Source: Omnitrophica WOR_2 bacterium GWF2_43_52 (GTDB taxonomy: Bacteria; Omnitrophota; Gorgyraeia; Gygaellales; UBA12090). From it: DNA of 64,000 bases. Below the pieces are notes generated by a model. It was not told where the DNA came from, made no database searches, and saw only the letters and a program-made list of their open reading frames with translations. Shown here piece by piece: positions 12,282-28,866 of the stretch (its first letter is position 1; every line of letters begins with the position of its first letter). The stretch is taken from assembly GCA_001805445.1 (NCBI GenBank), contig MHGF01000034.1:33929-97928 (forward strand), read 5' to 3'. Position numbers and translations under genes: made by a program.

Positions 12282-13958
12282 TTACTCGCTAGCCTCTAAG
12301 GTTACCCGCATAACTTCTTCTGGAGTAGTCAGTCCGGCAAGGAGTTTTTGTAAGGCGGCATCACGAAGAGTGCTAAGCCCTTCTTTTATGGCGATCGCCC
12401 GTATATCATCGGCGGAAGACCTTTTTAAAACTGTCTCTTGTACTTTTGGAGAGACTTTCAGTATCTCGTAGATACCCAGGCGCCCTTTATATCCGCTTGA
12501 ATTACAGAGTTTACAGCCAATGCCTTTATTAAAGGTAATATTCTGCCCGATTTTATCGGCTAAGCCGATGTTCCTTAAGGCTTCCTCAGAAGGGGCATAC
12601 GATTCTTTGCATCTTTCGCAGACCCTGCGGATGAGCCGCTGGGCCATGACTCCTAAAATTGAAGAAGAAACCAGAAACGGCTCGATTCCCATATCGATGA
12701 GGCGGCTAAACGCCGAAGAAGAATCGTTGGTGTGCAGGGTTGAAAGCACGAGGTGGCCGGTCAGGGCTGCTTGTATCGCGATTTCCGCGGTTTCATGGTC
12801 GCGGATTTCTCCCAGCATTATGATATTTGGATCTTGGCGCAGGAATGAGCGCAGGGCGGCGGCAAAGGTAAGCCCTGTTTTTACATTAACCGGCACCTGG
12901 CGTATCCCGGGGAATTGGTATTCAACAGGGTCTTCGACGGTCATAATATTCACCGTTTCTTTATTAAGAATCTGTAAGGCTGAATATAAGGTGGTTGTTT
13001 TCCCACTTCCGGTTGGCCCGGTAACCAGGATGATGCCGTAAGGCGAGTGAATCATTTCCTGAAACATGCCAAGTTCCTTTGCCGGAAACCCTAGGGTTTC
13101 CAACCCCAACACAACGCCGCTTTTATCCAGGATTCTTAATACCACATTTTCCCCGTGAATGGTGGGGCATGTGGAAACGCGGAAGTCGATATCTTTGTTG
13201 CCGATTTTCATGATAATCCTGCCGTCTTGAGGAAGGCGCTTTTCCGAAATATCAAGGCCGGACATAATTTTAAAGCGCGAGATAACCGCTCCGGATAGAT
13301 CTTTCGGCAGCGGTGACTGCCTGCGCAGGAGCCCGTCGACGCGGTAGCGTATATTGAGTGTTTTTTCTTCAGGCTCGATGTGGATGTCTGATGCCTTAAG
13401 CTGGACCGCCTGCATAATCAGGTAATTGACAATCTTGATAATCGGGGCTTCTTCCCCTAACTTCTCCCCTTCCGAGAGTTTACTTCGGTCAATAGAGGCG
13501 ACGATTTCTAAAAGCGTGCCCGAGCCCCCGTAATACTGGTCCTGGGATTTTTTGATTTCCAGTTCCTGCGCCAGGACAGGCTCAACCATAAGCTTGGTAA
13601 GCCGCTGTAATTCGTCAATGATAAAGACGTTGGTAGGGTCGGCCATGGCGACGGTGAGGGTGTTTTCGATTAAAAAAACGGGCAGGAGTTTGTACTTTCG
13701 GGCGAAATCTTCCGGGATAAGCTTGAAAAGAGAGGGTTCGATAATGTAATTGGAAAGGTCAAAACGGGCTATTCCTTTTTGCTTGGAAAGAGCAAGTTCA
13801 ATTTCTTCTTGTCCCACAACGCCCTTTTTAACTAAAATCTCGCCAACTTTTTCACCGGTGAGTTTTTGCTCTTCAAGGGCCTCACGCAGCTGCTCCATGC
13901 TGATGAAGCCTTGCTCGATTAAAATCTCGCCTATTTTTTTGTAACTGATTTCAGCCAT
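12282..13958 (-). CDS. pilB: type IV pilus assembly ATPase PilB/GspE
   Basis: N-terminal GSPII_E_N domain, Walker A GPTGSGKTTTLYS, C-terminal tetracysteine motif CERCKESYAPS...CKLCNSSGYKGRLGIYE. Confidence 0.9.
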   Translation of the reverse strand: MAEISYKKIGEILIEQGFISMEQLREALEEQKLTGEKVGEILVKKGVVGQEEIELALSKQKGIARFDLSNYIIEPSLFKLIPEDFARKYKLLPVFLIENTLTVAMADPTNVFIIDELQRLTKLMVEPVLAQELEIKKSQDQYYGGSGTLLEIVASIDRSKLSEGEKLGEEAPIIKIVNYLIMQAVQLKASDIHIEPEEKTLNIRYRVDGLLRRQSPLPKDLSGAVISRFKIMSGLDISEKRLPQDGRIIMKIGNKDIDFRVSTCPTIHGENVVLRILDKSGVVLGLETLGFPAKELGMFQEMIHSPYGIILVTGPTGSGKTTTLYSALQILNKETVNIMTVEDPVEYQFPGIRQVPVNVKTGLTFAAALRSFLRQDPNIIMLGEIRDHETAEIAIQAALTGHLVLSTLHTNDSSSAFSRLIDMGIEPFLVSSSILGVMAQRLIRRVCERCKESYAPSEEALRNIGLADKIGQNITFNKGIGCKLCNSSGYKGRLGIYEILKVSPKVQETVLKRSSADDIRAIAIKEGLSTLRDAALQKLLAGLTTPEEVMRVTLEASE

Positions 13959-13977
13959 GCCAAATGTTTTTGAGAAA

Positions 13978-16133: not shown

Positions 16134-16141
16134 ATTTTCGG

Positions 16142-16739: not shown

Positions 16740-16785
16740 AGTTTTTAGGTTATCAGAAATAGAGAATCTGTATCATAATAATGGT

Positions 16786-17099: not shown

Positions 17100-17273
17100 T
17101 TCATACTATCAATAGGTTAAAGCAATGCCTCAGAAAGCGCAGATTTTTTGGCTATCTTGTATATGTTTGATAGTATTTAGCTATATCTTAAGCTATTAAA
17201 TAGTATCTGTCAAGCTTATTTAGTTAGTGCTGAAAAACTCATTCCTATTCTAAAATACCTTTTTCAGTGGAAA

Positions 17274-18110
17274 CTATTTAGGCGTTGCTAATTTAAATAG
17301 TTGTTCCCGTGCCTCGGAAGTGATTTCAGTAAATTTTATCCCTAAAAAATACTGCCGGCCCTTCTCCATTCGGCAGTAAACGATTTCTCCTTTTGTTTTG
17401 ATGCTGTACCCGGAGGAAAAGAGCGATGCCTCTGGCCTGAATTCCAAAGCGATGTTGACGCCTTTTGGTAAATACAAAAATACCTCTAATCCTATTGCCG
17501 TGCCGTTATGGGAAATATCGCGGGTATATCCGTCAATAGGCGTGGCATACGGCAGGGATAAGGCCTCATCTTCGATGCTTAAGCTCATGGGGATAGTAAG
17601 CGGCAGCCTTTGAGATTCTCGCCAAAAGGTAAGCCCTTGTAGAGGCTTCTGCTGGACAATGGATTTTTCTAAGATAAACGTTTTTTCTTCAGGGCCCCAG
17701 GAGGCATCTAAGGCGGCGGCTATTGAGCGAGGAGGTGCCAGAAGAAATTCTATCGCGCAGCCAAGAGTTTTGGGAAGCGTATCCGTTAATTCGGCATCGA
17801 AAGGGTTGGTGCAGGCAAGATATACCGTATCTTTTATTTTAAAAAGCGGAATAAGGATATACTGGCGGCAGAAATCTTCATCTAATAAAGCAAGCACCTC
17901 AGGCTTAATTTTATAATCGGAAATTCGCACATAAGGAATACCGCTTTCCTGCGCGAAGAATATACTTAAGTCATCAAGTGACAGGTAGCTTGCTTTTACC
18001 AGCATTGACCATACCGATTTATTCGTTTTCGCGGCCTCTTGGCGTGCCGCTTCAAACTGCTCTTTCCTGACCCAGTGGCCGTCGACAAGTTTATTTTCTA
18101 GAGATTCCAT
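17274..18110 (-). CDS. T2SS-E N-terminal (MshEN-like) domain fused to PilZ-like domain; candidate c-di-GMP effector
   Basis: N-terminal GSPII_E_N-like fold (..LDDLSIFFAQESGIPYVRISDYKIKPEVLALLDEDFCRQYILIPLF...VYLACTNPFD). C-terminal RESQR and DISHNG motifs (RxxxR / DxSxxG). Confidence 0.55.
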   Translation of the reverse strand: MESLENKLVDGHWVRKEQFEAARQEAAKTNKSVWSMLVKASYLSLDDLSIFFAQESGIPYVRISDYKIKPEVLALLDEDFCRQYILIPLFKIKDTVYLACTNPFDAELTDTLPKTLGCAIEFLLAPPRSIAAALDASWGPEEKTFILEKSIVQQKPLQGLTFWRESQRLPLTIPMSLSIEDEALSLPYATPIDGYTRDISHNGTAIGLEVFLYLPKGVNIALEFRPEASLFSSGYSIKTKGEIVYCRMEKGRQYFLGIKFTEITSEAREQLFKLATPK

Positions 18111-18154
18111 AAGGTTTGTAGCATGGCGTACTCAACCTACGAGGTTGAATACGG

Positions 18155-18724
18155 TTATTTTGACCCGTCAGGATAATATTTTTTCATGAAATCTTCCAGG
18201 GTTTCTGAAATCCGCTGCTCGTCAATAATATAGAGGCCGGTTTTATCGATTTCATTCGGCGAGAGCTGCGGATATTTTTTTTGAACATAAGAAAGAAAAT
18301 CCCTTTGCTGTTTGGCAATCTTGAGGAGCTCTCGGTTATCTTTGAGTATGGCCGAATAGTCCAATGCCTGTTTCACCAACAGCTTAAACTCTTCGTTTTG
18401 CCAGGGTTTGGTAATAAAACGGTAGATTTGGCCGTTATTGACGGCTTTAATCACCGATTCCAGGTCTGGATAGCCGGTGATAAGAACGCGGATGGTGTCA
18501 GGGTATAATTGCTTTACCTTGATGAGAAACTCCACCCCGGACATATTCGGCAGCTTGTTATCCGAAATGACCAAATCCGCGCCCTGGTTGTTTTTTAGTT
18601 TTTCTAAAGCCTCTGCGGCGTCAAGCGCCGTTATTATCTCGCGGTCGTCGCTGCGCAAAAGCCTCGAGAGGCTGTTTAAAATATTTTGCTCATCATCTAA
18701 CAATACAATACAATGTTTTTGCAC
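18155..18724 (-). CDS. response regulator, receiver domain with C-terminal extension
   Basis: CIVLLDDEQNILNSL...ADLVISDNKLPNMSGVEFL...RFITKPW; 189 aa. Confidence 0.8.
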   Translation of the reverse strand: MQKHCIVLLDDEQNILNSLSRLLRSDDREIITALDAAEALEKLKNNQGADLVISDNKLPNMSGVEFLIKVKQLYPDTIRVLITGYPDLESVIKAVNNGQIYRFITKPWQNEEFKLLVKQALDYSAILKDNRELLKIAKQQRDFLSYVQKKYPQLSPNEIDKTGLYIIDEQRISETLEDFMKKYYPDGSK

Positions 18725-18727
18725 GTC

Positions 18728-19102
18728 TTATCCTCCGCTATTCTTTATCATATCATCAATAAATTGTTTTGAGAGAAAGGGGGTGATTTTGGTGAACATG
18801 ATTCCCATGCCCGCCGGAAGGACCTCGCCATCTGCAGTTTTGATTGATTGGGTTCTGTTCCATGCCACGACCCCTTCTGCACGGATGGTTTTCTTATTTT
18901 CTTTGCCAAGCTCAAACATGACCTCTATTTTTGTCTGTGCCGGCTCGACTTTTTCAGTGGCGATAAACATGCCTCCCGCGGAAAGGTCCTGGGCCTCGAC
19001 CATTTGCCAGAAACTTTTCCCGCGGTATTCAACCTTCAGTTTGACCAACGCGCGTTTATGCTTTCTTTTTTCATTTTCATTCATCGTATCTGCTCCTTCC
19101 AT
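18728..19102 (-). CDS. PilZ domain protein (c-di-GMP receptor)
   Basis: RKHKRALVK (RxxxR) and DLSAGGMFI (DxSxGG); 124 aa. Confidence 0.7.
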   Translation of the reverse strand: MEGADTMNENEKRKHKRALVKLKVEYRGKSFWQMVEAQDLSAGGMFIATEKVEPAQTKIEVMFELGKENKKTIRAEGVVAWNRTQSIKTADGEVLPAGMGIMFTKITPFLSKQFIDDMIKNSGG

Positions 19103-19108
19103 ATGCCT

Positions 19109-19999
19109 TTATAGGAATGGGGTATTTTTTTCGTTTTTAGTTTCCTTGCTTCTTTTGGGCAATTGTATGGTAAAGGTTGTTCCCTGCCCCGGCGAACTGT
19201 CAACGTTTATATCGCCGTGATGCTGTTTTATAATGTTATAACTTACCGAAAGCCCGAGGCCGGATCCTTTCTTTTTCGTTGAAAAAAACGGGTCAAAAAT
19301 TTTTGGCAGGACTTCTTTCGGGATGCCGCAGCCGTTATCTTTTATTATTACAAAAAGGTTATTCTGATCCTCCCGAGTAGATAAATTGATGGTGCCTTTT
19401 TCGGTAATCGTTTGAGAGGAATCAATTGCCTGTGAGGCATTGAGGAGGATATTCAGGAATACTTGTGAGAGCTGGGTGGCATCGGCTAAAATCTCCGACT
19501 GCGCCTGATACTCTTTTGTCAGCGAAACTTTGTATTTTATTTCGTTCCAGATAATCGAGAGCGTGGAATCGAGCACCTGATGGATATCGGTTAAAACCTT
19601 TTCCGTCTCATTTTGGCGGCTGAAGGTGCGCAAGTCAGAAACGATTTTTTTAATGCGTAAAGCCCCTTCCAGGGATTCTTCGGTCATGGGCAGGAAATCC
19701 TCAAGAATGGTTTTGGCATGCGGGCTTTCCGCGGGTAATTCCCGCGCGAAGCTTTTTACGTAATCCCGCAGGCTCTCGAGGTTACTGATAAGAAACCCCA
19801 GGGGATTATTGATTTCATGGGCAATGCCGGCAGCAAGCGTTCCTATGGATGCCATTTTTTCCATCTGGATAAGCTGTGCCTCGGTTTCCTTGATCAGCTT
19901 GACCTTTTCATGAATGGTTTTTCCCAAGCGCCGGTTCACCATAAAGGCGTAGCCAATAAAGACACAGATTGAAACAATTAAAACTATCGTAATTACCAT
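19109..19999 (-). CDS. membrane-anchored sensor histidine kinase
   Basis: N-terminal TM, H-box IAHEINNPLGFL, HATPase G-box GSGLGLSVSYNIIKQHHGDI. Confidence 0.85.
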   Translation of the reverse strand: MVITIVLIVSICVFIGYAFMVNRRLGKTIHEKVKLIKETEAQLIQMEKMASIGTLAAGIAHEINNPLGFLISNLESLRDYVKSFARELPAESPHAKTILEDFLPMTEESLEGALRIKKIVSDLRTFSRQNETEKVLTDIHQVLDSTLSIIWNEIKYKVSLTKEYQAQSEILADATQLSQVFLNILLNASQAIDSSQTITEKGTINLSTREDQNNLFVIIKDNGCGIPKEVLPKIFDPFFSTKKKGSGLGLSVSYNIIKQHHGDINVDSSPGQGTTFTIQLPKRSKETKNEKNTPFL

Positions 20000-20018: not shown

Positions 20019-21251
20019 CTAGCCTCCTCCTTTCATTACCGAAATCATTTCCCAGAGCGGCAGGAATATCGCAAGGCACATGGTCATAACAACGATACCG
20101 AGCGTCGCGGTCATAATCGGCTCAATCAAACCGGTGAGGCCTTTAACCGCGGCTTTGACTTCCAGGCTAAAATACTCGCATACCGAATCAAGCATCGTTG
20201 GTAACGATCCGCTTCTTTCGCCGACGGAAATCATGAATCCGACGATGCGGGGGAAATATTTGCTGCTAAGTACCGCCGTGGAAATGCCTTTCCCGTCAGC
20301 CAGGGCCTGTTTCATTGTGGCAATTTCCTGGGATAAGACCACATTACCGATAGTCAGGCCGACGATATCCATGGTTTTGAGTACCGGCAGGCCCGCTTGG
20401 TAAAGGACGCTCAGCATTGAAGTGAAACGCTGCATCGTAATTTTGGTGTAAATTTCACCGATCAGGGGAGTTTTAAATTTAAGGCCGTCCCACCAAAACC
20501 GGCCTTTTTTGGTATTGATATGATGGTTGAACATAAAGAAGCCGCCGATACAGGAAGGGATAAGAAGATACCAATAGTGCTTCATAATGGTGCTGATAAG
20601 GATCATAATCTGGGTCGGCAGGGGAAGTTTCATCTTAGCGTCAATATAAATTTTAGCAAACTGCGGAACGACAAAAATAGAAAGGACAAATACCGCTATC
20701 ACCAAGGCAATCATAACCATAATGGGATAACGCATCGCCTCATTGATTTTGGCGCGGGTTTCAAAATCATCTTCAAGCATACGCGAAAGCTTGGCAAGGA
20801 CGGTTTCCAGGACGCCCGCGCTTTCTCCGGCGACAATGGTATTGACGTAAAGTTCGTTAAAGACATTAGGATGGCGCATCATTGCCTGGGAAAGGCTAAT
20901 GCCGCCTTTGACTTCGTTGACAATATTTTGGAGCGCCTGTTTTAAGGCAATGTCCTCGGTTTGCTCGGATAATACCGTCAGCCCGTCGACGATAGGAATG
21001 CCGGCCTTGATAATGGTTGAGAATTGGCGGGAAAATATAATAATTGATTGGGTGCTTGCTTTCCCCGCCTTTTTTACCGCTGTTTCGGAAACCTGCTTGG
21101 TTTTTACGGTTTTAAAGCTTATGCTTATACTGATAGGCATGTACCCTATCTTGGCAAGATGGGTGGTTACTTCCATTTCGTTGGCAGCTTCTAATTCGCC
21201 TTTTACCAGTTTACCGCCTGCGTCTGCCGCTTTATAAAGGTAGAGGGGCAT
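20019..21251 (-). CDS. PilC/GspF/MshG-family platform protein (second copy)
   Basis: Two T2SS-F repeats, 410 aa; paralog of the 7764..8972 product. Confidence 0.85.
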   Translation of the reverse strand: MPLYLYKAADAGGKLVKGELEAANEMEVTTHLAKIGYMPISISISFKTVKTKQVSETAVKKAGKASTQSIIIFSRQFSTIIKAGIPIVDGLTVLSEQTEDIALKQALQNIVNEVKGGISLSQAMMRHPNVFNELYVNTIVAGESAGVLETVLAKLSRMLEDDFETRAKINEAMRYPIMVMIALVIAVFVLSIFVVPQFAKIYIDAKMKLPLPTQIMILISTIMKHYWYLLIPSCIGGFFMFNHHINTKKGRFWWDGLKFKTPLIGEIYTKITMQRFTSMLSVLYQAGLPVLKTMDIVGLTIGNVVLSQEIATMKQALADGKGISTAVLSSKYFPRIVGFMISVGERSGSLPTMLDSVCEYFSLEVKAAVKGLTGLIEPIMTATLGIVVMTMCLAIFLPLWEMISVMKGGG

Positions 21252-21315: not shown

Positions 21316-22146
21316 TCAGCTTAGATTAAAATCCTTGATTACCGAACTTACTAAGGCGGCATCAACCGTTTCCGCTTTTTGCGCGAAGCCGGACATCAAG
21401 GCAAAATCGCAGAGGGTGTTGATGCGCCGGGGAATACCCCCCGAATATTGAAACACCGCCTTTAACGCGTCTTTATTAAAAACAGGGTTTCCAGATTCCG
21501 GCCGTCCCGCGACCTTAAGGCGGTGGCTGATATATTTATCCACATCTTCCTCAGAGAGCGGCCCGAGTGAACAGCGTATCGCTACCCGCTGGTCCAGCGG
21601 CTTATTGTTCTCTACCTTCTCCTTTAATTCCGGTTGGCCAAAAAGCAGGAGGGTTAAGAGAAATTTGTTCTCCATCTGGAAATTTAAAATCATGCGTAAT
21701 TGTTCAAATAATTTCGCGTCTTCTATGGTGTGCGTCTCATCGATAATGACGATATTTTCTTTTCCGTCCCGCGCGTTATCTACGAGAATGGCGTTAAGTT
21801 TTTCTAAGAGTGAGTCGGCAAGCAAATCGCTTTTTTTATCCGGCAGAGGCTGAGGGCTTAAGCCCCGCACTATAGCCCTCAGTAATTCAGCCGGTTCGCT
21901 ATATGAGGGGCTGGAAACAAAGGCGGAACGCACCTTATCTTTACCCAAATCATTGAGCAGGGCCTTGCCCAAAAGCGTTTTCCCGCAGCCAAAGACTCCC
22001 ATAAGCATGCCGCAGCCTAACCCCTGGGTAACGCAATAGCTGAGCTTCATAATCGCGTCTTCATGCTGGGCGGATAAATACAGGTACCGCGGGTCAGGCG
22101 TATTTTGAAAAGGTTTTTCCTTAAACTGCCAGTGTTGTTCGTACAT
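21316..22146 (-). CDS. ExeA/MshM-like AAA ATPase
   Basis: Walker A GVFGCGKTLLGKAL; sits in the MshM position of an msh-like operon. Confidence 0.6.
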   Translation of the reverse strand: MYEQHWQFKEKPFQNTPDPRYLYLSAQHEDAIMKLSYCVTQGLGCGMLMGVFGCGKTLLGKALLNDLGKDKVRSAFVSSPSYSEPAELLRAIVRGLSPQPLPDKKSDLLADSLLEKLNAILVDNARDGKENIVIIDETHTIEDAKLFEQLRMILNFQMENKFLLTLLLFGQPELKEKVENNKPLDQRVAIRCSLGPLSEEDVDKYISHRLKVAGRPESGNPVFNKDALKAVFQYSGGIPRRINTLCDFALMSGFAQKAETVDAALVSSVIKDFNLS

Positions 22147-22198: not shown

Positions 22199-24019
22199 TT
22201 ACTTCTTTCTGCTGAGCCAATTCGCTACGCGTTTTTGGTATTCCTCAAAATCGGTAGTTTTGACGTCTACTTTTTCGCTTCCCGCGGCTATCGGCGCCTG
22301 AGCGCCTCGTGTTAAAGGCTCAACCTTTACCTCATGAGAGGGTTTGAGTTCAATATGCTCTTCGCAGACCCTGGCGATTTCTTCGATGGTCGTCATGCCT
22401 TTTAAGGCTTTGGCAACGCCGTCTTCAGCCAAAAGGAGCATTCCTTTCTCCTGGGCTTTTTTACGCAGTACCATGGTAGAGGCTTCAGCGATAATCAATT
22501 CGCGCAATTCATCGTCAAGCACCATTAATTCAAATACCCCCAGCCTTCCTTTATAACCGGTCCCTTTACATTTATCGCAGCCTTTTCCCCGGTAAAGCTT
22601 AATGCCTTCCTTGCCTTTGAGCCCCCATTTGTCTAAAAGCGCCTTTGACGGCTCATAGGTTTCTTTGCAATCGGAGCAGATGAGCCGTATCAGGCGCTGC
22701 GCCATAATACCCATTAAGCTCGCGGAGATAAGAAACGGCTCTATCCCCATATTGACTAATCGTGTTATTGAAGAGGGCGCGTCATTGGTGTGCAGGGTGG
22801 AAAATACCAAATGGCCGGTAAGCGCTGCTTGTATGGCAATGGTCGCGGTTTCCAGGTCACGGATTTCTCCTACCATGATAACATCGGGGTCCTGCCTGAG
22901 AATCGCGCGTAAACCTCCGGCAAAACTGATGCCTGCCTTGGGGTTTACCTGTATTTGGCGGATGAGCCCTAAGCGGTATTCAACAGGATCCTCGATGGTG
23001 ATAATATTGCGGTCAATGGTATTAATTCTCATAAGCGCCGAATACAGCGTTGTTGTTTTTCCGCTTCCCGTTGGCCCTGTAGAAAGAATAATGCCGTAGG
23101 GCTTCGCGATAAGTTCTTCGTATTTTTTAAGGTGTTCATAGCTGGAAAAGCCTAATTTTTCAAGGCCGATCATGACCGACGCGGTATCCAAAATACGAAG
23201 AACCAGATTTTCTCCATAGATAGTCGGGATAGTCGCGACGCGGAAGTCAATGATTTTATCTTCTGTCTTTGCCTGAAAATGGCCGTCTTGAGGAATCCTG
23301 CTTTCGGCAATATCCATACCCGATAATACCTTGATGCGGGAAATTATCGCCACTTCCCAAGGTTTTGGAGGCGAAGGAATTTCATGGAGGATGCCGTCAA
23401 TCCTGAAGCGTATGCGGGTTAATTCTTGCTCCGGCTCGATATGGATGTCAGAGGCATGGTCCCGTACTGCTTGAGCGAGGATTAAATCCACAAGCTTGAT
23501 AATGGAGGAGCCTTCCGCCATCATTTCTTTAGCCGATGTTTGGGGGCCTCCCTTATGCAAATCGGATAATAAATCAGCGATAGCGGAACGTTCCTCGTAT
23601 ATCCTGTTTAAGGCATCGTTGATTTCCTGGGGGCTTGAAAGCGCGATATCTAAAGGCATGCCGGTTTGCATTTGGATTTGGTCTATAGAGTAGAGGTCAG
23701 TGGGGTCGGCCATGGCAATCTGCAGGGTGCCGTTTACTATTTTTACCGGTACAGCCAGGGTCTGGCGCGCCAAGGCCGCCGGCATAACCTTGGTAAGTTC
23801 TTCGTCGGCTTTATTGAGCCCCTCAAGGCTTAGGTATACAAAACCCAGGTGTTTGGCAATTGCTTCATAGAGAGCGGCCTTGGACAAAAGGCGGTTTTCG
23901 ACAACGATTTTCTCAAGCGGCCGTTTTAATTTTTTAGTTTCTTCAATAGCCTTATTGAGTTCGTCTTGATTAATCAGATTACGTTCAAATAATAAGTTTT
24001 GCAGCTGCTCGTCGTTCAT
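22199..24019 (-). CDS. PilB/GspE/MshE-family secretion ATPase (second copy)
   Basis: GSPII_E_N domain, GPTGSGKTTTLYSAL, CSDCKETYEPS...CDKCKGTGYKGRLGVFE. Confidence 0.9.
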   Translation of the reverse strand: MNDEQLQNLLFERNLINQDELNKAIEETKKLKRPLEKIVVENRLLSKAALYEAIAKHLGFVYLSLEGLNKADEELTKVMPAALARQTLAVPVKIVNGTLQIAMADPTDLYSIDQIQMQTGMPLDIALSSPQEINDALNRIYEERSAIADLLSDLHKGGPQTSAKEMMAEGSSIIKLVDLILAQAVRDHASDIHIEPEQELTRIRFRIDGILHEIPSPPKPWEVAIISRIKVLSGMDIAESRIPQDGHFQAKTEDKIIDFRVATIPTIYGENLVLRILDTASVMIGLEKLGFSSYEHLKKYEELIAKPYGIILSTGPTGSGKTTTLYSALMRINTIDRNIITIEDPVEYRLGLIRQIQVNPKAGISFAGGLRAILRQDPDVIMVGEIRDLETATIAIQAALTGHLVFSTLHTNDAPSSITRLVNMGIEPFLISASLMGIMAQRLIRLICSDCKETYEPSKALLDKWGLKGKEGIKLYRGKGCDKCKGTGYKGRLGVFELMVLDDELRELIIAEASTMVLRKKAQEKGMLLLAEDGVAKALKGMTTIEEIARVCEEHIELKPSHEVKVEPLTRGAQAPIAAGSEKVDVKTTDFEEYQKRVANWLSRKK

Positions 24020-24681
24020 TTAGTCTCAAGCTCTTTTTTTATCTGCCGTACCCACTCCCTAACCTCGTTTCCTGCTTCCTTAGGCGAGATAAATTTAAGG
24101 TAGCGGTTGTAGTAGGTTAAGGCCATTGATTTATCCTTAAGATAGCTTTCATAGAGCACGCCCAAATTATAATAGGCATCAGTATCCTTAGGGTGTAACT
24201 GGATCACTTTCTTCAAAAATTCCGCGGCTATTTTGTATTCACGGGCCTTGAGGTAGAGCATAGCGAGGTTATAATAAAGATTCGGATTTTGCGGAGCGGC
24301 TTCTATGGCTTTGGTGTAAAAGGCAAGAGACGTAGGAAGAAGCGTGTTTTCCGGTTTTTCAATGGCCGTATTCGGCAAAGCCCTTTCGGCTTTTGTTTGA
24401 GCAGGCAGATTTTGAGGCGCGTCCGGAATGTCTGCCGCGGAAACCGGAATATCTGAGGTGCCGGTAAGCAGGAACTGCGCTTTTTTAAAAGATTCGTTAG
24501 CTCCGGTATAGTTACCCTGCTCAAGGAGTTTTTTACCGGCCAGATGATATTCCCGGGATTTTTTGATTTTGTCTTCAGGGGAAATTTCCGCTTCCTGCTG
24601 GCAAAAGCAGTCACTCGCCGCGAAAAGAAAAATGATACCCGCGGTAAAAAACAAAGGCAGTAATTTATTTTTCTGTCGCAT
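24016..24681 (-). CDS. TPR-repeat protein with signal peptide (PilF/MshN-like)
   Basis: TPR-like helices (YYNLAMLYLKAREYKIAAEFLKKVIQL, YYNLGVLYESY). Confidence 0.55.
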   Translation of the reverse strand: MRQKNKLLPLFFTAGIIFLFAASDCFCQQEAEISPEDKIKKSREYHLAGKKLLEQGNYTGANESFKKAQFLLTGTSDIPVSAADIPDAPQNLPAQTKAERALPNTAIEKPENTLLPTSLAFYTKAIEAAPQNPNLYYNLAMLYLKAREYKIAAEFLKKVIQLHPKDTDAYYNLGVLYESYLKDKSMALTYYNRYLKFISPKEAGNEVREWVRQIKKELETK

Positions 24682-26323
24682 TGTTTTGTTCTAAAAGCAT
24701 GGTTTCTTGGTTTGGCGTTTCTTGTCGTGGCGGCTCTGAAGGTTCAGTATCTTTTACCGGAGTAATCTCAAGCTTTATCTTTTTAGTTTCATGGGATAGT
24801 GGTGGTTCAGGAGGTTTTGTGTTTTGTAAGATAGTGGTGATGAGCGAGGCCTGGCCTTCAAGCTCGCTGAGCCTTTGCGTTACCCGGGCAAGCTGTGTTT
24901 TCGCCGTTTCTTTTTCTATTTGTACTGCTACATTTTGTTCCCGCAACAGGGCGCTTTCCCTTTCCAGTTCTTTAGCCCGAGCCTGAACTTCGGACAGTTT
25001 ATAGTGGGCATCAACCTGTTTTTCTTCGGCAGACAAAATTCTGTTTGCGCGTTTTCCCAGCTCAATTTCATTGTTGGAGAGGGTTTCTTTTACGGCGGTG
25101 TAGGCATTCTGCAGCTGGGCGTAGGCATCAGTAAGCTGGGTAAGCTGCTTCTGAAGCGCCGCAGCCTCATTTTGCAGTTTTTGGGTATTAGTAAGTGAAT
25201 TTCGCGCGTCGGCCAAGCTTTTTACCAAAACTTGTTTTTCCTCATCCGTGTTTGCTAAGTGCCTTTGCGAGGATTCCTGCAGGTTTTTTAAGGATGCGTT
25301 ATAGTGCGTGGTAAGCGTTTCTTTTTCTTTCTCAAAAGCCGCAAGCCGGCGTTGCGCCTCGTTGACGGTTTTTTCTAAACGCGTGTTTTCTCTTGCGAGA
25401 GCGGCATTTGCTTGCGCGAGTTCCGCGCGCACGTTTTCCAAGCCGGTAATTTTCTTGTCGAGGCCCTCGCGATCCTGCCGCATTTTCTTAAGTTCTTCAG
25501 GTATGTTGAGCGCATCTGTTTTTGATGGTTGATTTTTCTGAGCCTTAGCCGCGGCCTGATTCTCTAATTCCTGGATACGAGTTTCTTTTTGGGAAAGCAT
25601 AGCCTGCAAATTTTCCGCCCTTTGCTTAGAGGAGGCATTTTCTTTAAGGGAAAGCGGTGCTTGGGAATCTAGGGCGTCTAATTTTTTATGTATATCCTTC
25701 AGGATATGCTTAAGCTCATTTTTTTTAGGGCCGGTAGCCGAAGACTGATCAAGCGATGATTCAATAGCTGTAATTTTCTGTCGGAGAGGCTGGGTTGCCG
25801 TAACTTCTGCTTTTGCCTGAGCGAGTTCTTTTAAGAGCGATTGTTGTTGTTGGGCAAGCACACGCTGTTGATCGAGAAGGGATTGTTTTTGCTCAACCAG
25901 CGATTGTTGCTGGGCAACCAGCGATTGTTGTTGAGCGTTCGCATCGTTTAAGGCTTGTTCCAGGCGTACCCGCTCTTTTTTTTCTTCTTGCAATGAGCCG
26001 TCGATTTTTCGGTTGATCTGTACAATGGCCTGAAAGGAATCTTTTAGCTGCTCGAGTTGCCGCGTCGTTTCGGCGGCTTCCTGAGGCTTTATGTGGGTTG
26101 TGCGAATAGTCTTTTTACGCGCAGGGCTGCCAAGGTATGCCAGTACTATAGCGCTAAAGATAAGCGCCAAAAGAACAAACAACAGGGTTTTTTTATCTTT
26201 CATAATGCGAGGCCTTATGATTTTACCGGAAGGGGCATTATTTTTAGCTGTCTCGGGAGACTCCGGTACGAAAGCGGCATTTTGTTCTTTGTGTTCGATA
26301 TCGTCCATCGAGGTATTCCTCAT
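24665..26323 (-). CDS. membrane-anchored long coiled-coil protein (Q-rich heptads)
   Basis: TM segment LLFVLLALIFSAIVLAYLG followed by ~450 aa of coiled coil (QQQSLVAQQQSLVEQKQSLLDQQRVLAQQQQSLL). No recognisable catalytic domain. Confidence 0.4.
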   Translation of the reverse strand: MRNTSMDDIEHKEQNAAFVPESPETAKNNAPSGKIIRPRIMKDKKTLLFVLLALIFSAIVLAYLGSPARKKTIRTTHIKPQEAAETTRQLEQLKDSFQAIVQINRKIDGSLQEEKKERVRLEQALNDANAQQQSLVAQQQSLVEQKQSLLDQQRVLAQQQQSLLKELAQAKAEVTATQPLRQKITAIESSLDQSSATGPKKNELKHILKDIHKKLDALDSQAPLSLKENASSKQRAENLQAMLSQKETRIQELENQAAAKAQKNQPSKTDALNIPEELKKMRQDREGLDKKITGLENVRAELAQANAALARENTRLEKTVNEAQRRLAAFEKEKETLTTHYNASLKNLQESSQRHLANTDEEKQVLVKSLADARNSLTNTQKLQNEAAALQKQLTQLTDAYAQLQNAYTAVKETLSNNEIELGKRANRILSAEEKQVDAHYKLSEVQARAKELERESALLREQNVAVQIEKETAKTQLARVTQRLSELEGQASLITTILQNTKPPEPPLSHETKKIKLEITPVKDTEPSEPPRQETPNQETMLLEQNNATEK

Positions 26324-27732
26324 TTTATTGCCCGGAGATCCATTTTAAGCGGCCGCGCCGGCGAAGTGACAATATTGCTCTCATACGCCAGGAGCTGTTC
26401 ATCGGTATCTTTAATTATACGGGCGGTAACGAAAATTAGCAAGTCTGTTTTTTCCTGCGGGTTTGAGCTTGAGCCAACCTCTTTTCGGCTGAAGAAAAAG
26501 CCAAGAAGAGGAATATCCCCCAAGAAAGGAACCTTGCTTACTTTTGTAAATGATTCATCTTTAACCAAGCCGCCGATTACCACGGTTTGTCCGTCACGAA
26601 TGAGCACTTCGGTTTCTACGGTTCTCGTTGAAGTAATAGGCGCGGCGTCTTCGCCCTCGATCTTTATAAAATCGCTAATGCTGCTTACCGCGGGTTTAAG
26701 CTTTAATTTAATATGGCCATCAGGCGAGATTTGCGGAGTGACTTCTAATTCTACGCCGACCTTTTTATCTTCGGACCATCCGGTAATCTCCATTTTTCCC
26801 GTAGTATCATTTCTTTCATAAACTGGAATGGGGACATCTTTGCCTACGTGGATGAGCGCTTTTTGATTATTAAGGGTAACGACTCGCGGATTGGCGATGA
26901 GTTTCGTATCGTTACGGTTCTTCAAGAAATCCAGGATCAATTTTAAAGAGCTTGCATCAAGGGTTCCAAGGGTAAAATCACCTTTAACCGCGGTAGGAAA
27001 ACCATAGGGATGGCCAGTAGGGAAATCGGAGCCCGATGCCGGATTCGGCGGGAAGACATTTTCCATCCACCCTCTGTCTCCCTTGGGAGAAAACGGTAAT
27101 GTCATTGGCCTTTTAGCGCCGCTGGCACTCAAGGTTGTGGTCCAGTCTATGCCTAATTTATCGCTTCTGGTTAATGAGGTTTCGATAAGCTTGGTTTCAA
27201 TCAAAACCTGAAGCGTAAGCCCGTCAAGGGTGGGGAGTATTTCGGCAACTTTATTGATAACTGAGAGGATATCGGTAACAATAATAGAATTAGAACGGGA
27301 GTCCGCTTCAATAGAGCCGTCAGGAGTTAAGACTTTGGAAAGGGTCCCTTTCAAGGTCATAGCATCCGCGTTATTGAGCCGGAATAATTTAGTTTGTTTG
27401 CCTTCACGTTCTGCTTCGTCGGGAGTCGTTACCTTAATCACATTGTCTTTTTTGGCGTAGACAAAACCGTTAACCGTAATAATGGAATCAAGCGCCTCTT
27501 CAATAGAAACATTGCTCAGCTGGACGGTAACCAGGCCGCTTACTTTTTCGGAGAAGACGATGTTAAGGTTATACTGCTTGCTGAGCTGGCGCAGCACGTC
27601 TTTGATATCAAGCTCACGGAATTCCAACGATTCAATGATGTTGTCTTCGCCGGTTGCCTGCTGGCTATGAGTAAACGCCGCAGGTAAGAGCAGCGCGTAG
27701 ATGAATGCAGCTACTACCGCATACTTTTTCAC
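26320..27732 (-). CDS. secretin (GspD/PilQ/MshL-family), second copy
   Basis: Signal peptide, N-domains, secretin core VVIGGLVKDE...VPFLGDIPLLGFFF. Confidence 0.85.
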   Translation of the reverse strand: MKKYAVVAAFIYALLLPAAFTHSQQATGEDNIIESLEFRELDIKDVLRQLSKQYNLNIVFSEKVSGLVTVQLSNVSIEEALDSIITVNGFVYAKKDNVIKVTTPDEAEREGKQTKLFRLNNADAMTLKGTLSKVLTPDGSIEADSRSNSIIVTDILSVINKVAEILPTLDGLTLQVLIETKLIETSLTRSDKLGIDWTTTLSASGAKRPMTLPFSPKGDRGWMENVFPPNPASGSDFPTGHPYGFPTAVKGDFTLGTLDASSLKLILDFLKNRNDTKLIANPRVVTLNNQKALIHVGKDVPIPVYERNDTTGKMEITGWSEDKKVGVELEVTPQISPDGHIKLKLKPAVSSISDFIKIEGEDAAPITSTRTVETEVLIRDGQTVVIGGLVKDESFTKVSKVPFLGDIPLLGFFFSRKEVGSSSNPQEKTDLLIFVTARIIKDTDEQLLAYESNIVTSPARPLKMDLRAIK

Positions 27733-27765
27733 CTTTTCACCTCGTTTTGTATTTACTTCAATAGG

Positions 27766-28239
27766 TTATTCTTCAGGCAAAGTTATGTAAAAACTCTGCT
27801 CGCCTTTACGTAAGAGTACCTTGTCTTTTTCGATTTCCACCACTTCATACGCTCCCAAGGTGTCTCCCTGCTTGACAATCTCAGTATTGATAAAGGCCAA
27901 TGCTTTTTTATCTTTACCCACTGAAATGCCTTTTAGTTCAAGATGGGCTTTTTGGAATTCCTGGCTTACCTTCAGCGCGCTGAAAGGGTTTCTTCCCCAG
28001 GCTATTTGAGCGCGCTCTTTTTGCAGGGTGTCCATTTTTTTGGCCGCGTTTTCGTCTTTAACTTCCGGCATAGGGGCAGCCTTTGGCAAGCCTTGCGGTT
28101 GCGCGGGTTTTATCGCCTCTTCCGGGGCCTCGGCAACAGGCTTTTTTTTTGCCTTTCCTTTGAGGCTCCCAACAACGAGTAACGCCAAGACGCCAATAAG
28201 TACTGCGGTAATGACAATTTCCGTTTGTTGCTTGCTCAT
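27766..28239 (-). CDS. PilP-like protein (TM anchor plus PilP-type beta domain)
   Basis: C-terminal ALAFINTEIVKQGDTLGAYEVVEIEKDKVLLRKGEQSFYITL parallels that of the 16142..16597 product. Confidence 0.45.
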   Translation of the reverse strand: MSKQQTEIVITAVLIGVLALLVVGSLKGKAKKKPVAEAPEEAIKPAQPQGLPKAAPMPEVKDENAAKKMDTLQKERAQIAWGRNPFSALKVSQEFQKAHLELKGISVGKDKKALAFINTEIVKQGDTLGAYEVVEIEKDKVLLRKGEQSFYITLPEE

Positions 28240-28862
28240 ATCTCTACCACCGTAAAGGTGCTGATTAAAAGCGCTGCCACGAGTTTTTCTTCTTGCTCAG
28301 CGGTTTTATTAAAAGGTTTTTCTGCCGCAACGGATTCTTGGGAGGTGTCAGTTTTTTCCATGGTTAAACGCTCGATGATAAAGGTATTGGGCAGCTCGCT
28401 TAAGGCCTTGGTGTATTCGGCGATAGCTTGATAAGAGCCGCTTAAGATAAGTTCGATATATACTTTATTTACTCCCGGCGGCAGGATCTCGGCGCCTAAA
28501 GGTATATCCTGGCGCGGCTTGATGGAAATAACGGTAGCGTTCAATTTATTTGCCGGAAGCGCCAATAACTGGATAAGCCTCGGGATTTGGCGGCTCGTTG
28601 CCCCCATTTCTTTTAATTCCTCCGCCTTTTTTTCTATTTCTTCGCTTGCCTTTTGAGGGTTTGGAAAGCGCCGGATAAGCTCTTCTGCTTCTTTAAGCTT
28701 ATCCTGAGAAAGGGTAAATTCAGCCTTGAGTTTCTCTTGGTATTTCATGATCGGCGTGCGGATAAAAAAATAAGCAAGGGCCAAAACAATAACGCACATA
28801 ATAGCGGTAAGAGCTACTTGTATCATTTTATTCGTTTTTATTCGCGCGATAAAGGCTACCAT
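28236..28862 (-). CDS. PilO/MshJ-like bitopic protein
   Basis: Single TM, coiled coil, C-terminal domain; positioned between PilM/N-like and PilP-like genes. Confidence 0.45.
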   Translation of the reverse strand: MVAFIARIKTNKMIQVALTAIMCVIVLALAYFFIRTPIMKYQEKLKAEFTLSQDKLKEAEELIRRFPNPQKASEEIEKKAEELKEMGATSRQIPRLIQLLALPANKLNATVISIKPRQDIPLGAEILPPGVNKVYIELILSGSYQAIAEYTKALSELPNTFIIERLTMEKTDTSQESVAAEKPFNKTAEQEEKLVAALLISTFTVVEI

Positions 28863-28866
28863 AGAA

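What the first reader, a model, noticed from the sequence alone, without database searches (positions are those of the whole stretch)
17274..19999. Embedded c-di-GMP-responsive control set inside the MSHA-like operon: MshEN-PilZ fusion, response regulator, PilZ, histidine kinase
Four consecutive genes are co-oriented with the pilus genes. Their ORFs are spaced 3-44 nt apart: 44 nt between the MshEN-PilZ gene and the response regulator, 3 nt between the regulator and PilZ, and 6 nt between PilZ and the kinase. They encode a minimal membrane histidine kinase, a stand-alone PilZ protein (RKHKR and DLSAGG motifs), a receiver protein with a C-terminal extension, and a protein that combines a T2SS-E N-terminal (MshEN-type) fold with a C-terminal PilZ-like domain (RESQR and DISHNG). 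MshEN domains and PilZ domains are the two known c-di-GMP-binding modules that gate T4P ATPases. Finding both in one polypeptide that is detached from the ATPase, next to a two-component pair, suggests a dedicated c-di-GMP to pilus-extension switch that has not been characterised.
Basis: inference. Interest (0 to 1): 0.55.

Follow-up and report, generated by a model that had tools for sequence, protein, structure and literature searches.

The report
Pilus operon's detached MshEN-like–PilZ sensor
An uncultured Omnitrophota bacterium carries, inside a type IV pilus operon, a conserved small protein that joins a c-di-GMP-blind copy of the pilus motor's N-terminal domain to a c-di-GMP-binding PilZ domain, probably supplying in trans the second-messenger control that the motor itself has lost.

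Summary
Four co-oriented minus-strand genes lie 19/6/3/44 nt apart, directly after pilC of an MSHA-like type IV pilus operon in a Candidatus Omnitrophota MAG. They encode a histidine kinase, a PilZ protein, a response regulator and a 278-aa MshEN+PilZ fusion. Pfam, an AlphaFold model (pLDDT 89) and Foldseek (MshE 5HTL; YcgR and BcsA PilZ) confirm both domains of the fusion.

The PilZ half keeps the c-di-GMP motifs: RxxxR in 104/104 family members, and RxxxR plus [DN]xSxxG in 93/104. The MshEN half has lost the c-di-GMP motif: 0/104 pass even the relaxed motif, and Trp replaces the key Gly. It is therefore one sensor plus a docking-type domain, not two sensors.

The adjacent pilus ATPase is also motif-degenerate (0/20 orthologues). 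A second ATPase in the same window is canonical.

The fusion follows pilC in 22/22 related loci. The kinase-PilZ-regulator trio is accessory (15/22).

My best reading is that the fusion is a trans-acting c-di-GMP adaptor for a c-di-GMP-blind motor, with an optional HapZ-like two-component add-on. I class it as a new variant of a known kind. It is uncharacterised and, as far as sampled, restricted to Omnitrophota.

The parts
17274..18110 (-). FUS: 278-aa MshEN-like (residues ~1-150, c-di-GMP motif degenerate) + canonical PilZ (residues ~164-275; R164/R168, D197-I-S-H-N-G)
   Evidence: Pfam. AF2 model pLDDT 89 with a flexible linker at 150-165. Foldseek hits 5HTL (TMt 0.78) and the PilZ domains of YcgR, BcsA and MotI. 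Family alignment A1. Motif statistics.
18155..18724 (-). Response regulator: RpfG-type receiver with a conserved helical C-terminal extension (long helix 110-150 plus tail with YIIDE...KKYYP); no HD-GYP or other output domain
   Evidence: Pfam and NCBIfam (NF053512 matches only positions 1-140 of 422). PDB 2rjn, 99.9 bits. D10, D11, D55, K106 invariant and T83 nearly invariant. AF2 model.
18728..19102 (-). Stand-alone canonical PilZ protein (RKHKR ... DLSAGG), 124 aa
   Evidence: Pfam 36.1 bits. TIGR02266 49.7 bits, below its cut-off. Motifs conserved in 24 orthologues. No solved relative by sequence.
19109..19999 (-). Minimal histidine kinase: one N-terminal TM helix, HisKA + HATPase_c, no sensor domain
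   Evidence: H-box AAGIAHEINNPL and the N/G1/F/G2 boxes are conserved in 16 orthologues.
20019..21251 (-). PilC/GspF/MshG-type platform protein; the fusion gene (or the trio plus fusion) always follows it
   Evidence: Pfam T2SSF 191.8 bits. Synteny.
21316..22146 (-). MshM/ExeA-like AAA protein
   Evidence: AAA_22 and TIGR03015.
22199..24019 (-). Pilus ATPase A (MshE/PilB-like) whose MshEN motifs are degenerate (QLQ... / KRPLE...)
   Evidence: Key positions 5/11 and 6/11. NF053729 33.9 bits, below the 38-bit cut-off. 0/20 orthologues match the relaxed motif.
24016..30654 (-). Remainder of pilus system A: TPR (MshN-like), 552-aa coiled-coil protein, secretin, PilP-like, PilO, PilM-PilN fusion
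   Evidence: Conserved order in related loci.
12282..13958 (-). Contrast/control: ATPase B of the neighbouring second pilus/T2SS-like cluster, with a canonical tandem MshEN c-di-GMP motif at residues 8-31 and 37-60
   Evidence: Relaxed motif matched twice. Key positions 11/11 and 10/11. NF053729 62.1 bits, above the 38-bit cut-off. 4/4 orthologues canonical (5/5 counting the window).

Best explanation
The 278-aa protein is a dedicated, trans-acting c-di-GMP receptor and adaptor of the MSHA-like pilus machine encoded upstream.

Its C-terminal canonical PilZ domain binds c-di-GMP. This is inferred from intact RxxxR and [DN]xSxxG motifs on a flexible linker plus beta-barrel.

Its N-terminal domain has the full MshE N-terminal fold (four-helix bundle plus alpha/beta subdomain) but has lost the nucleotide-binding residues. 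I propose it serves as a protein-docking module of the kind the ATPase N-terminal domain uses. Precedents are GspE-N1E binding GspL/PilM-like proteins, and Xanthomonas PilB-N binding PilZ.

The cognate ATPase A is itself c-di-GMP-blind by motif. The fusion would therefore restore second-messenger control of pilus extension in trans, either by recruiting and activating the ATPase at the PilM/PilC platform or by competing with its N-terminal domain. The direction is not resolved.

In about two thirds of lineages, including this window, an accessory module has been inserted between pilC and the fusion gene. It consists of a sensor-less membrane kinase, a stand-alone PilZ and a receiver protein with a helical, non-enzymatic tail. 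The most likely mechanism is a HapZ-like one. The small PilZ would bind the kinase or receiver when loaded with c-di-GMP and gate phosphotransfer. The phosphorylated receiver would then act on the pilus machine by protein-protein contact.

Shown here: folds, motifs, synteny, the contrast between ATPase A and ATPase B, and restriction to Omnitrophota as far as sampled. Inferred: all binding and all interactions.
For: - Domains and folds.
- PilZ motifs: RxxxR in 104/104 and RxxxR plus [DN]xSxxG in 93/104 family members. R164 and R168 are invariant in A1.
- MshEN motif lost in the fusion: 0/104 relaxed matches, key positions 4/11 and 5/11, and no NF053729 hit.
- Published calibration of the motif: PilF GSPII-A, with one degenerate motif, does not bind c-di-GMP, and Q190E+Q218E abolishes binding in GSPII-B (PMC11731258). 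Motif definition: PMC5013675.
- ATPase A is degenerate in the window and in 20/20 distinct orthologues next to the fusion, with NF053729 below cut-off.
- ATPase B in the same window and its 4 orthologues in related loci is canonical, so the organism does use MshEN-type c-di-GMP sensing elsewhere.
- Synteny: the fusion lies immediately downstream of pilC, on the same strand, in 22/22 distinct loci. The trio is present in 15/22.
- A second, more distant fusion subfamily (P0116 and P0120 named Omnitrophota; P0114 carries no source name) also sits in pilus-regulatory context: upstream of a PilS-like HK (all three), followed by a PilR-like regulator and pilin where the contig extends far enough.
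- Physical precedent for PilZ pairing with a degenerate MshEN-like domain: the Xanthomonas PilB(12-163)-PilZ structure (PMC8389850), whose chains are also structural hits of the model (7LKM/7LKO).
- HapZ-SagS precedent for a stand-alone PilZ gating two-component phosphotransfer.
- The RR and HK catalytic residues are conserved.
- No minus-strand terminator-like site separates the genes.
Against: - No binding or interaction was or could be measured here. Motif-based prediction of non-binding by the MshEN half is strong but not absolute. Some substitutions are tolerated in PilF GSPII-B (K for R; single Q-to-E mutants still bind at sub-micromolar affinity).
- A minority of family members have weakened second PilZ motifs, for example DITTNA in P0068 and DVSSDY in P0099. 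c-di-GMP binding may therefore not be universal in the family.
- The second subfamily has no ATPase gene nearby. That fits a regulator of two-component signalling as well as an ATPase adaptor.
- The only GGDEF-type protein in the window has GGDDF rather than GG(D/E)EF, so c-di-GMP synthesis by this organism is not shown from the window.
- The AF2 pTM of 0.63 gives no reliable inter-domain geometry.
Confidence: 0.6

Rival explanations
1. One reading: the fusion is a double c-di-GMP sensor in which both the MshEN half and the PilZ half bind the nucleotide.
For: Both Pfam domains score above their cut-offs. The 24+5+24 spacing of the MshEN_N helices is preserved, and hydrophobic positions are partly kept. 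The Trp that replaces Gly3 of motif 2 is found in at least 86/104 members and could in principle stack on a base.
Against: 0/104 members pass the relaxed motif. R1, G3 and Q24 are replaced in both motifs. There is no NF053729 hit, whereas ATPase B passes it. Gly3 contributes a backbone amide H-bond to guanine and Gln24 binds the ribose-phosphate (PMC5013675, PMC11731258). A double Q-to-E mutant abolishes binding, and a domain with only one degenerate motif (GSPII-A) already fails to bind.
Confidence: 0.07
2. The fusion acts mainly on pilus two-component signalling and pilin expression rather than on the ATPase. Its MshEN-like domain or PilZ domain would bind a histidine kinase or receiver (the minimal HK/RR here; PilS/PilR-like pairs in the second subfamily) and tune phosphotransfer in response to c-di-GMP.
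For: The distant subfamily (P0114, P0116, P0120) lies directly upstream of a HAMP-PAS histidine kinase, followed (for P0116 and P0120) by a sigma54-type regulator and pilin genes, with no ATPase in the flanks. In this window and 15/22 loci a kinase and a receiver are the immediate neighbours. HapZ gives a precedent for PilZ-REC contacts.
Against: In 6/22 loci the fusion follows pilC with no kinase or receiver nearby (L001, L015, L016, L033, L034, L043). The N-terminal domain is specifically the fold used by secretion ATPases to dock on the machine. The correlation with a motif-degenerate ATPase is complete in the sampled loci.
Confidence: 0.2
3. The fusion is a decaying remnant of a duplicated ATPase N-terminus joined to a PilZ gene, with no present function.
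For: The MshEN motif is degenerate.
Against: There are 104 full-length members of constant length (~270-292 aa) at 39-87% identity, with 12 invariant and 32 nearly invariant columns in a 30-sequence alignment. Gene position is fixed. The fold prediction is confident. The N-domain is only 22-28% identical to either ATPase N-terminus, so it is not a recent duplicate.
Confidence: 0.02

Closest known systems
Vibrio cholerae MshE / MSHA pilus (c-di-GMP binds the MshEN domain of the extension ATPase; PDB 5HTL)
   Same: The operon has the same kinds of genes in nearly the same order: PilM-N (MshI-like), PilO, secretin, TPR (MshN-like), ATPase (MshE-like), AAA protein (MshM-like) and PilC (MshG-like). 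[quoted passage not shown]
   Different: The ATPase here lacks the c-di-GMP motif, and so does the fusion's MshEN-like domain. The predicted nucleotide site is a PilZ domain on a separate polypeptide.
Xanthomonas citri PilB-PilZ-FimX complex (PDB 7LKM/7LKN/7LKO; PMC8389850)
   Same: A pilus ATPase whose MshEN-like N-terminal domain cannot bind c-di-GMP receives the signal through a PilZ-fold partner. A PilZ fold and an MshEN-like fold form a physical pair. Here the two folds are covalently joined, in the manner of a Rosetta-stone fusion.
   Different: Xanthomonas PilZ is a non-binding (type II) PilZ, and the sensor is FimX's EAL domain. Here the PilZ motifs are canonical and no FimX-like gene lies in the window. 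The MshEN-like domain is detached from the ATPase rather than part of it.
Thermus thermophilus PilF GSPII-A (a non-binding MshEN-type domain)
   Same: It is an MshEN-fold domain with degenerate motifs that is retained for a role other than c-di-GMP binding. It is also a structural hit of the model (9G1W).
   Different: GSPII-A is part of the ATPase polypeptide and is not fused to PilZ.
Pseudomonas aeruginosa HapZ-SagS (a stand-alone PilZ adaptor that gates two-component phosphotransfer)
   Same: A small canonical PilZ protein is encoded with a kinase and a receiver. This is a plausible model for the HK-PilZ-RR trio.
   Different: No sequence membership in the HapZ cluster was shown. The kinase here has no REC domain, and the link to pili is by operon context only.
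YcgR/MotI-type PilZ brakes and xPilZ-PilZ two-domain receptors
   Same: These are two-domain receptors in which RxxxR lies on the inter-domain linker, and the N-terminal domain gives target specificity for a motility machine. The PilZ half hits YcgR and MotI structurally.
   Different: The N-terminal domain here is an MshEN fold, not a PilZN/xPilZ fold. The target is presumably a pilus machine, not a flagellar one.

Membership tests
MshEN c-di-GMP receptor domain (Wang et al. 2016; PF05157) | Two-subdomain fold: four-helix MshEN_N plus alpha/beta MshEN_C | tested here: met
   PF05157 66.2 bits. phmmer alignment to PilB and MshE N-termini over residues 7-138. AF2 model H4-56 plus beta/alpha 86-138. 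Foldseek 5HTL TMt 0.78, rmsd 2.9 A.
MshEN c-di-GMP receptor domain (Wang et al. 2016; PF05157) | Tandem 24-residue motifs RLGxx(L/V/I)(L/V/I)xxG(L/V/I)(L/V/I)xxxxLxxxLxxQ joined by a 5-residue spacer | tested here: not met
   Spacing is kept but key residues are lost: SLE...A and SVW...E, 4/11 and 5/11 key positions. 0/104 family members match the relaxed motif. No NF053729 hit. Positive control ATPase B: 11/11 and 10/11, 62.1 bits.
MshEN c-di-GMP receptor domain (Wang et al. 2016; PF05157) | Binds c-di-GMP | not testable with these tools
   Needs ITC or DRaCALA on residues 1-150.
Canonical PilZ domain (PF07238) | Beta-barrel with a C-terminal helix | tested here: met
   PF07238 41.0 bits. Model strands 168-262 plus helix 265-275. 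Foldseek hits to the PilZ domains of YcgR, BcsA, MotI, VCA0042, PA0012, Alg44 and MapZ.
Canonical PilZ domain (PF07238) | RxxxR and (D/N)xSxxG c-di-GMP-binding motifs | tested here: met
   RESQR (164-168) and DISHNG in the fusion; RKHKR and DLSAGG in the 124-aa protein. In the family, RxxxR 104/104 and both motifs 93/104.
Canonical PilZ domain (PF07238) | Binds c-di-GMP | not testable with these tools
   Needs a biochemical assay with R164A/R168A controls.
Xanthomonas-type PilB-PilZ-FimX regulatory complex | PilB N-terminal domain lacking the c-di-GMP motifs | tested here: met
   ATPase A.
Xanthomonas-type PilB-PilZ-FimX regulatory complex | Non-binding type II PilZ plus a FimX (GGDEF-EAL) sensor | tested here: not met
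   Both PilZ domains here carry canonical motifs. No EAL-domain protein was found among the window ORFs scanned. The whole genome was not available.
MSHA-type pilus system | mshI-J-K-L-M-N-E-G-like gene set | tested here: inconclusive
   PilM-N, PilO, PilP-like, secretin, TPR, ATPase, ExeA/MshM-like AAA and PilC are present in similar order. NCBIfam equivalog scores are all below cut-off (for example MshL model 143.8 bits against 250.2), so 'MSHA-like' is a description, not membership.
RpfG-family REC-HD-GYP response regulators | RpfG-type receiver domain | tested here: met
   NF053512 178 bits over positions 1-140. PDB 2rjn 99.9 bits. D10, D11, D55, K106 invariant and T83 nearly invariant.
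RpfG-family REC-HD-GYP response regulators | HD-GYP phosphodiesterase domain | tested here: not met
   The protein ends at residue 189, and only a helical tail follows the receiver.
HapZ-type PilZ adaptor of two-component systems | Stand-alone canonical PilZ that binds a REC domain or kinase when loaded with c-di-GMP | not testable with these tools
   Only operon context (6-nt and 3-nt gaps; overlapping HK and PilZ ORFs in L008, L009 and L020) and motif integrity are available.

The most novel reading that the evidence does not exclude
The fusion is a detachable, c-di-GMP-gated N1 domain for the pilus motor. c-di-GMP would be clamped between the PilZ linker (RxxxR) and the remodelled MshEN_N pocket, where a Trp found in at least 86/104 family members (the KSxW hallmark) replaces the motif Gly. 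That would be a composite binding site not yet described. The liganded protein would then substitute for or pair with the c-di-GMP-blind N-terminal domain of ATPase A (conserved KKLKRPLE patch) at the PilM/PilC platform to license extension. This would be a split form of MshE regulation found, as far as sampled, only in Omnitrophota, and it could be used to identify the long-sought docking partner of PilB-type N1 domains.
Probability: 0.15. Interest if true: 0.7.

Novelty: new variant of a known kind. Interest (0 to 1): 0.45.

Why it matters
c-di-GMP control of type IV pilus extension is known in two forms. In one, the nucleotide binds the ATPase's own MshEN domain (V. cholerae, M. xanthus, Clostridium, Thermus). 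In the other, it acts through FimX/PilZ partners of a motif-less PilB (Xanthomonas, Pseudomonas). This locus suggests a third wiring: a motif-less ATPase paired with a free-standing protein that combines an MshEN-fold docking domain with a canonical PilZ receptor.

The same genome also carries a second pilus/T2SS-like cluster whose ATPase keeps the canonical in-cis motif. That gives a natural internal control.

The role of the PilB/MshE N1 domain in the machine is still poorly understood (review PMC11656802). An isolated, soluble N1-like domain with a ligand switch would be a convenient probe for its binding partner.

Omnitrophota are uncultured, ultra-small and probably host-dependent bacteria, and their type IVa pili are proposed to mediate attachment to hosts (PMC10066038). 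A conserved second-messenger switch on that pilus is therefore a candidate control point for that lifestyle.

Tried and rejected
- Dual-sensor reading: rejected on motif evidence.
- Recent duplication of an ATPase N-terminus: rejected. The fusion's N-domain is only 22% (ATPase A) and 28% (ATPase B) identical to the ATPase N-termini. The two PilZ domains share no significant similarity.
- Pseudogene or remnant: rejected by conservation.
- Riboswitch or known RNA in or near the set: none. Rfam at gathering threshold on the whole window and at E<=1 on 16700-17300 gave no hits.
- Terminators inside the set: the consensus scan shows no minus-strand terminator between genes. The single minus-strand hit lies inside the PilZ ORF and is weak, and the overall count is not above shuffles.
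- Solved relatives of the 124-aa PilZ by sequence: none.
- AFDB fold search to obtain taxonomy of the architecture: library not installed.
- Search for the architecture outside Omnitrophota: every member that carries a taxon-bearing source name, including the distant P0116 and P0120, is labelled Omnitrophota. A few loci are labelled Planctomycetales or Planctomycetia MAGs, which I suspect are binning labels. Most metagenomic members carry no taxonomy, so the restriction is provisional.
- Literature search for an MshEN-PilZ or T2SSE_N-PilZ fusion: nothing found in the held library. Supplementary domain tables of Wang et al. 2016 were not read.
- RR tail: the model gives only helices at low confidence (pLDDT 47-79 after residue 140). 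No fold search was attempted on it.


Full report
**Observation**

The window carries four minus-strand ORFs at exactly the stated coordinates:
- histidine kinase, 19109-19999 (296 aa);
- PilZ protein, 18728-19102 (124 aa);
- response regulator, 18155-18724 (189 aa, GTG start);
- a 278-aa protein, 17274-18110.

The gaps are 6, 3 and 44 nt, and 19 nt separate the kinase from the preceding pilC gene (20019-21251).

- 278-aa protein: MshEN 66.2 bits plus PilZ 41.0 bits;
- 124-aa protein: PilZ 36.1 bits;
- regulator: Response_reg 68.2 bits;
- kinase: HisKA plus HATPase_c.

The quoted motifs are there. A regex for RxxxR...[DN]xSxxG hits only these two proteins among 59 window ORFs.

Upstream on the same strand lie a PilM-PilN fusion, PilO, a PilP-like protein, a secretin, a 552-aa coiled-coil protein, a TPR protein, a 606-aa MshEN+T2SSE ATPase ('ATPase A', 22199-24019), an ExeA/MshM-like AAA protein and PilC. 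This is an MSHA-like type IV pilus operon. No NCBIfam equivalog cut-off is reached, so 'MSHA-like' is descriptive only.

The organism is a Candidatus Omnitrophota MAG: a 100%-identical protein is named so in NCBI.

**The fusion protein itself**

A 30-sequence alignment (A1) gave an AlphaFold2 model with mean pLDDT 89. It has an N-terminal helical bundle plus alpha/beta subdomain (residues ~4-153), a low-confidence linker (~150-165) that carries RESQR, and a beta-barrel with a C-terminal helix (168-275).

Foldseek against the PDB returns two sets of hits:
- for the N-half: V. cholerae MshE-N with c-di-GMP (5HTL, TMt 0.78, rmsd 2.9 A), Thermus PilF GSPII domains and Xanthomonas PilB-N (7LKM/7LKO);
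- for the C-half: canonical PilZ domains (YcgR, BcsA, MotI, VCA0042, PA0012, Alg44, MapZ).

The fusion architecture is therefore real.

**Which half can bind c-di-GMP?**

Wang et al. [quoted passage not shown] They also give a relaxed search pattern.

The fusion keeps the 24+5+24 register but reads SLENKLVDGHWVRKEQFEAARQEA / AKTNK / SVWSMLVKASYLSLDDLSIFFAQE. Only 4/11 and 5/11 key positions are kept. Arg1, Gly3 and Gln24 are replaced in both motifs.

Across 104 full-length family members:
- none matches the relaxed pattern;
- at least 86 carry Trp in place of the motif-2 Gly (a 'KSxW' hallmark);
- RxxxR is present in 104/104, and RxxxR plus [DN]xSxxG in 93/104.

The curated NCBIfam model of the MshE-type c-di-GMP motif (NF053729) does not hit the fusion at all.

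Published data calibrate this result. Gly3 and Gln24 make the polar contacts. PilF GSPII-A, with only one degenerate motif, does not bind. A double Gln-to-Glu mutant abolishes binding in GSPII-B (PMC11731258).

My conclusion is that the PilZ half is the predicted c-di-GMP site, and the MshEN half is a structural or docking domain.

**The cognate ATPase is also motif-degenerate, and a neighbour is not**

ATPase A reads QLQNLLFERNLINQDELNKAIEET / KKLKR / PLEKIVVENRLLSKAALYEAIAKH. That is 5/11 and 6/11 key positions, and NF053729 scores 33.9 bits against a cut-off of 38. All 20 distinct orthologous ATPases that sit next to a fusion gene in related loci fail the relaxed motif and share a conserved KKLKRPLE segment.

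The window also holds a second pilus/T2SS-like cluster (5242-16739). It encodes a MerR-like protein, a PilP-like protein, a secretin, an ATPase, four pilin-like genes, a PilX-like protein, PilC, PilM and PilO.

Its ATPase B (12282-13958) has textbook motifs, KIGEILIEQGFISMEQLREALEEQ / KLTGE / KVGEILVKKGVVGQEEIELALSKQ:
- key positions 11/11 and 10/11;
- relaxed motif matched at residues 8 and 37;
- NF053729 62.1 bits, above cut-off.

Its four orthologues in related loci (L004, L015, L021, L028) are all canonical too. This serves as a positive control for the method. It also shows that the organism uses in-cis MshEN sensing for one machine and not the other.

**Conservation of context**

Two collection scans and several exact look-ups gave 43 loci. 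I searched them by tblastn with the window's proteins.
- In all 22 distinct loci where both genes are visible, the fusion gene lies directly downstream of pilC of the same operon, on the same strand.
- The kinase-PilZ-regulator trio is present, in the same order, in 15 of the 22.
- One locus (L028) has only the PilZ gene.
- Six loci (L001, L015, L016, L033, L034, L043) have none of the three. Two of these have a 67-68-aa ORF instead.

The fusion is therefore the core accessory gene of this pilus operon, and the two-component trio is an optional insertion.

A full HMMER scan of 1.84 billion representatives found 77 proteins at E<=1e-30. Roughly 35 of these are full-length fusion-type proteins. 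The rest are multi-MshEN ATPases or glycosyltransferases.

The more distant full-length members P0116 and P0120 are again named Omnitrophota; P0114 carries no source name. All three keep KSxW and the PilZ motifs. They occupy a different but related context: immediately upstream of a HAMP-PAS histidine kinase, followed for P0116 and P0120 by a sigma54-type regulator and pilin genes.

**The trio**

- The kinase has one N-terminal transmembrane helix and no sensor domain. Its H, N, G1, F and G2 boxes are conserved in 16 orthologues.
- The regulator has an RpfG-type receiver (NF053512 178 bits, but only model positions 1-140 of 422; PDB 2rjn 99.9 bits). D10, D11, D55 and K106 are invariant and T83 is nearly invariant.
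- The regulator's model shows a long helix (110-150) and a short, conserved helical tail (YIIDE...KKYYP) at low confidence. It has no HD-GYP or any other output domain.
- The 124-aa PilZ keeps both motifs in 24 orthologues.
- ORFs abut or overlap in several loci, and no terminator-like site separates them.

**Mechanism**

I propose that the fusion is a trans-acting c-di-GMP receptor for pilus system A.

*Shown:* a canonical PilZ motif set, a degenerate MshEN fold, fixed synteny with pilC and with a motif-degenerate ATPase, and a canonical paralogue next door.

*Inferred from established knowledge:*
- MshEN_C/N1E-type domains dock secretion ATPases to PilM/GspL-type platform proteins (EpsE-EpsL 2BH1 and GspE-GspL 4PHT, cited in PMC8389850; 4PHT is also a weak structural hit).
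- A PilZ fold binds the motif-less N-terminal domain of Xanthomonas PilB (7LKO).

Hence the fusion may take one of two geometries:
- (a) it sits on the platform through its MshEN-like domain and engages the ATPase N-domain through c-di-GMP-loaded PilZ; or
- (b) it competes with the ATPase N-domain.

I cannot decide the sign of the effect.

For the trio, the best precedent is HapZ, a stand-alone PilZ that binds a REC domain at high c-di-GMP and gates phosphotransfer. The receiver, lacking an enzymatic or DNA-binding output, would act by protein contact.

A serious rival (0.2) is that fusion-type proteins primarily modulate pilus two-component signalling. The second subfamily's position next to PilS/PilR-like pairs suggests this.

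**Comparison with known systems and novelty**

The closest systems are:
- V. cholerae MshE (same machine type and fold, but in-cis sensing);
- the Xanthomonas PilB-PilZ-FimX complex (same logic of a blind ATPase plus a PilZ-fold partner, but there PilZ is non-binding and FimX is the sensor);
- PilF GSPII-A (a retained non-binding MshEN domain);
- HapZ-SagS.

Automated pipelines already label the two domains (for example JGI's name for P0063). I found no paper describing the architecture or its link to a motif-less ATPase. The Omnitrophota survey that highlights type IVa pili does not mention c-di-GMP. I rate this a new variant of a known kind.

**Caveats**
- Everything about ligand binding and partners is inference.
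- A minority of family members have weakened second PilZ motifs.
- The nearby REC-GGDEF protein has GGDDF rather than GG(D/E)EF, so c-di-GMP synthesis is not demonstrated from this window.
- The taxonomic restriction rests on the subset of hits that carry names.

**Side observations**

A ~320-nt direct repeat lies upstream of each of the two pilus clusters (16783-17099 and 31152-31469; 85.6% identity overall, with a nearly identical core of about 185 nt). Both copies fold into the same very stable three-way-junction hairpin (z -6.1 and -7.2), with two compensatory differences. There is no Rfam match.

The window also carries a ComFB-CheR fusion, an architecture already noted for Omnitrophota in PMC12448109, and several chemotaxis genes.

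Noticed in passing
window 16783-17099 and 31152-31469 (minus strand): A ~320-nt direct repeat (85.6% identity overall, with a nearly identical core of about 185 nt). One copy lies in the 534-nt gap between the fusion gene and the MerR-like first gene of pilus cluster B. The other lies upstream of a small ORF plus the PilM-N gene, at the head of pilus cluster A. Both fold as RNA into the same long three-way-junction hairpin (-76.7 and -88 kcal/mol; z -6.1 and -7.2). Two of the few differences are compensatory (U-A to C-G, C-G to U-A). There is no Rfam match. It could be a shared leader or cis-regulatory RNA of both pilus operons, an sRNA, or a MITE-like element.
   Followed up: partly
window 12282-13958 (-) versus 22199-24019 (-): Two PilB/MshE-type ATPases lie 8 kb apart. 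One has a textbook tandem MshEN c-di-GMP motif and the other has both motifs degenerate and a conserved KKLKRPLE segment. The dichotomy holds in all related loci examined.
   Followed up: yes
window 34721-36352 (+): A ComFB-CheR fusion (ComFB 35.3 bits, CheR_N and CheR). ComFB is a recently described c-di-NMP receptor domain, and this architecture was already noted for Omnitrophota in PMC12448109.
   Followed up: partly
window 36726-37661 (+): A REC-GGDEF-like protein (311 aa) whose signature reads GGDDF instead of GG(D/E)EF, with only the first half of the Pfam GGDEF model matched. A similar REC-GGDEF gene lies near the pilus operon in L043. Cyclase activity is uncertain.
   Followed up: partly
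window 9426-9797 (-): A gene for a '23S rRNA-intervening sequence protein' family member (PF05635, 73.6 bits) sits inside the row of pilin-like genes of cluster B.
   Followed up: no
window 13978-16133 (-): The secretin of cluster B is read as two ORFs overlapping by 4 nt: an N-terminal part at 15240-16133 with Ser-rich low-complexity ends, and a C-terminal secretin domain at 13978-15243. The same two-part tblastn pattern appears in related loci. This may be a genuine split, a frameshift, or a low-complexity linker.
   Followed up: no
L001 9763-9969 and L043 9758-9961: In loci that lack the kinase-PilZ-regulator trio, a 67-68-aa ORF without Pfam hits occupies the space between pilC and the fusion gene.
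   Followed up: no
L040 3273-4151, L042 4413-5276, and the contig of P0114: A second, more distant MshEN-like+PilZ subfamily (P0116 and P0120 named Omnitrophota; P0114 carries no source name) lies directly upstream of a PilS-like HAMP-PAS kinase; in L040 and L042 a PilR-like sigma54 regulator, pilin genes and radical-SAM/SPASM and glycosyltransferase genes follow.
   Followed up: partly
proteins P0096, P0101, P0107 (not in the window): The profile search surfaced proteins with 4 tandem MshEN domains before a T2SSE ATPase, and one with 6 tandem MshEN domains before a family-2 glycosyltransferase.
   Followed up: partly
window 1988-4586 (-); 39618-41914 (-), 50694-52799 (+), 59533-61194 (-): dnaN and dnaA lie at the low-coordinate end of the window. 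The pilus clusters are surrounded by chemotaxis genes: two MCPs, CheW, CheB, CheC/CheX, and two single-domain receivers at 47065-48009.
   Followed up: no
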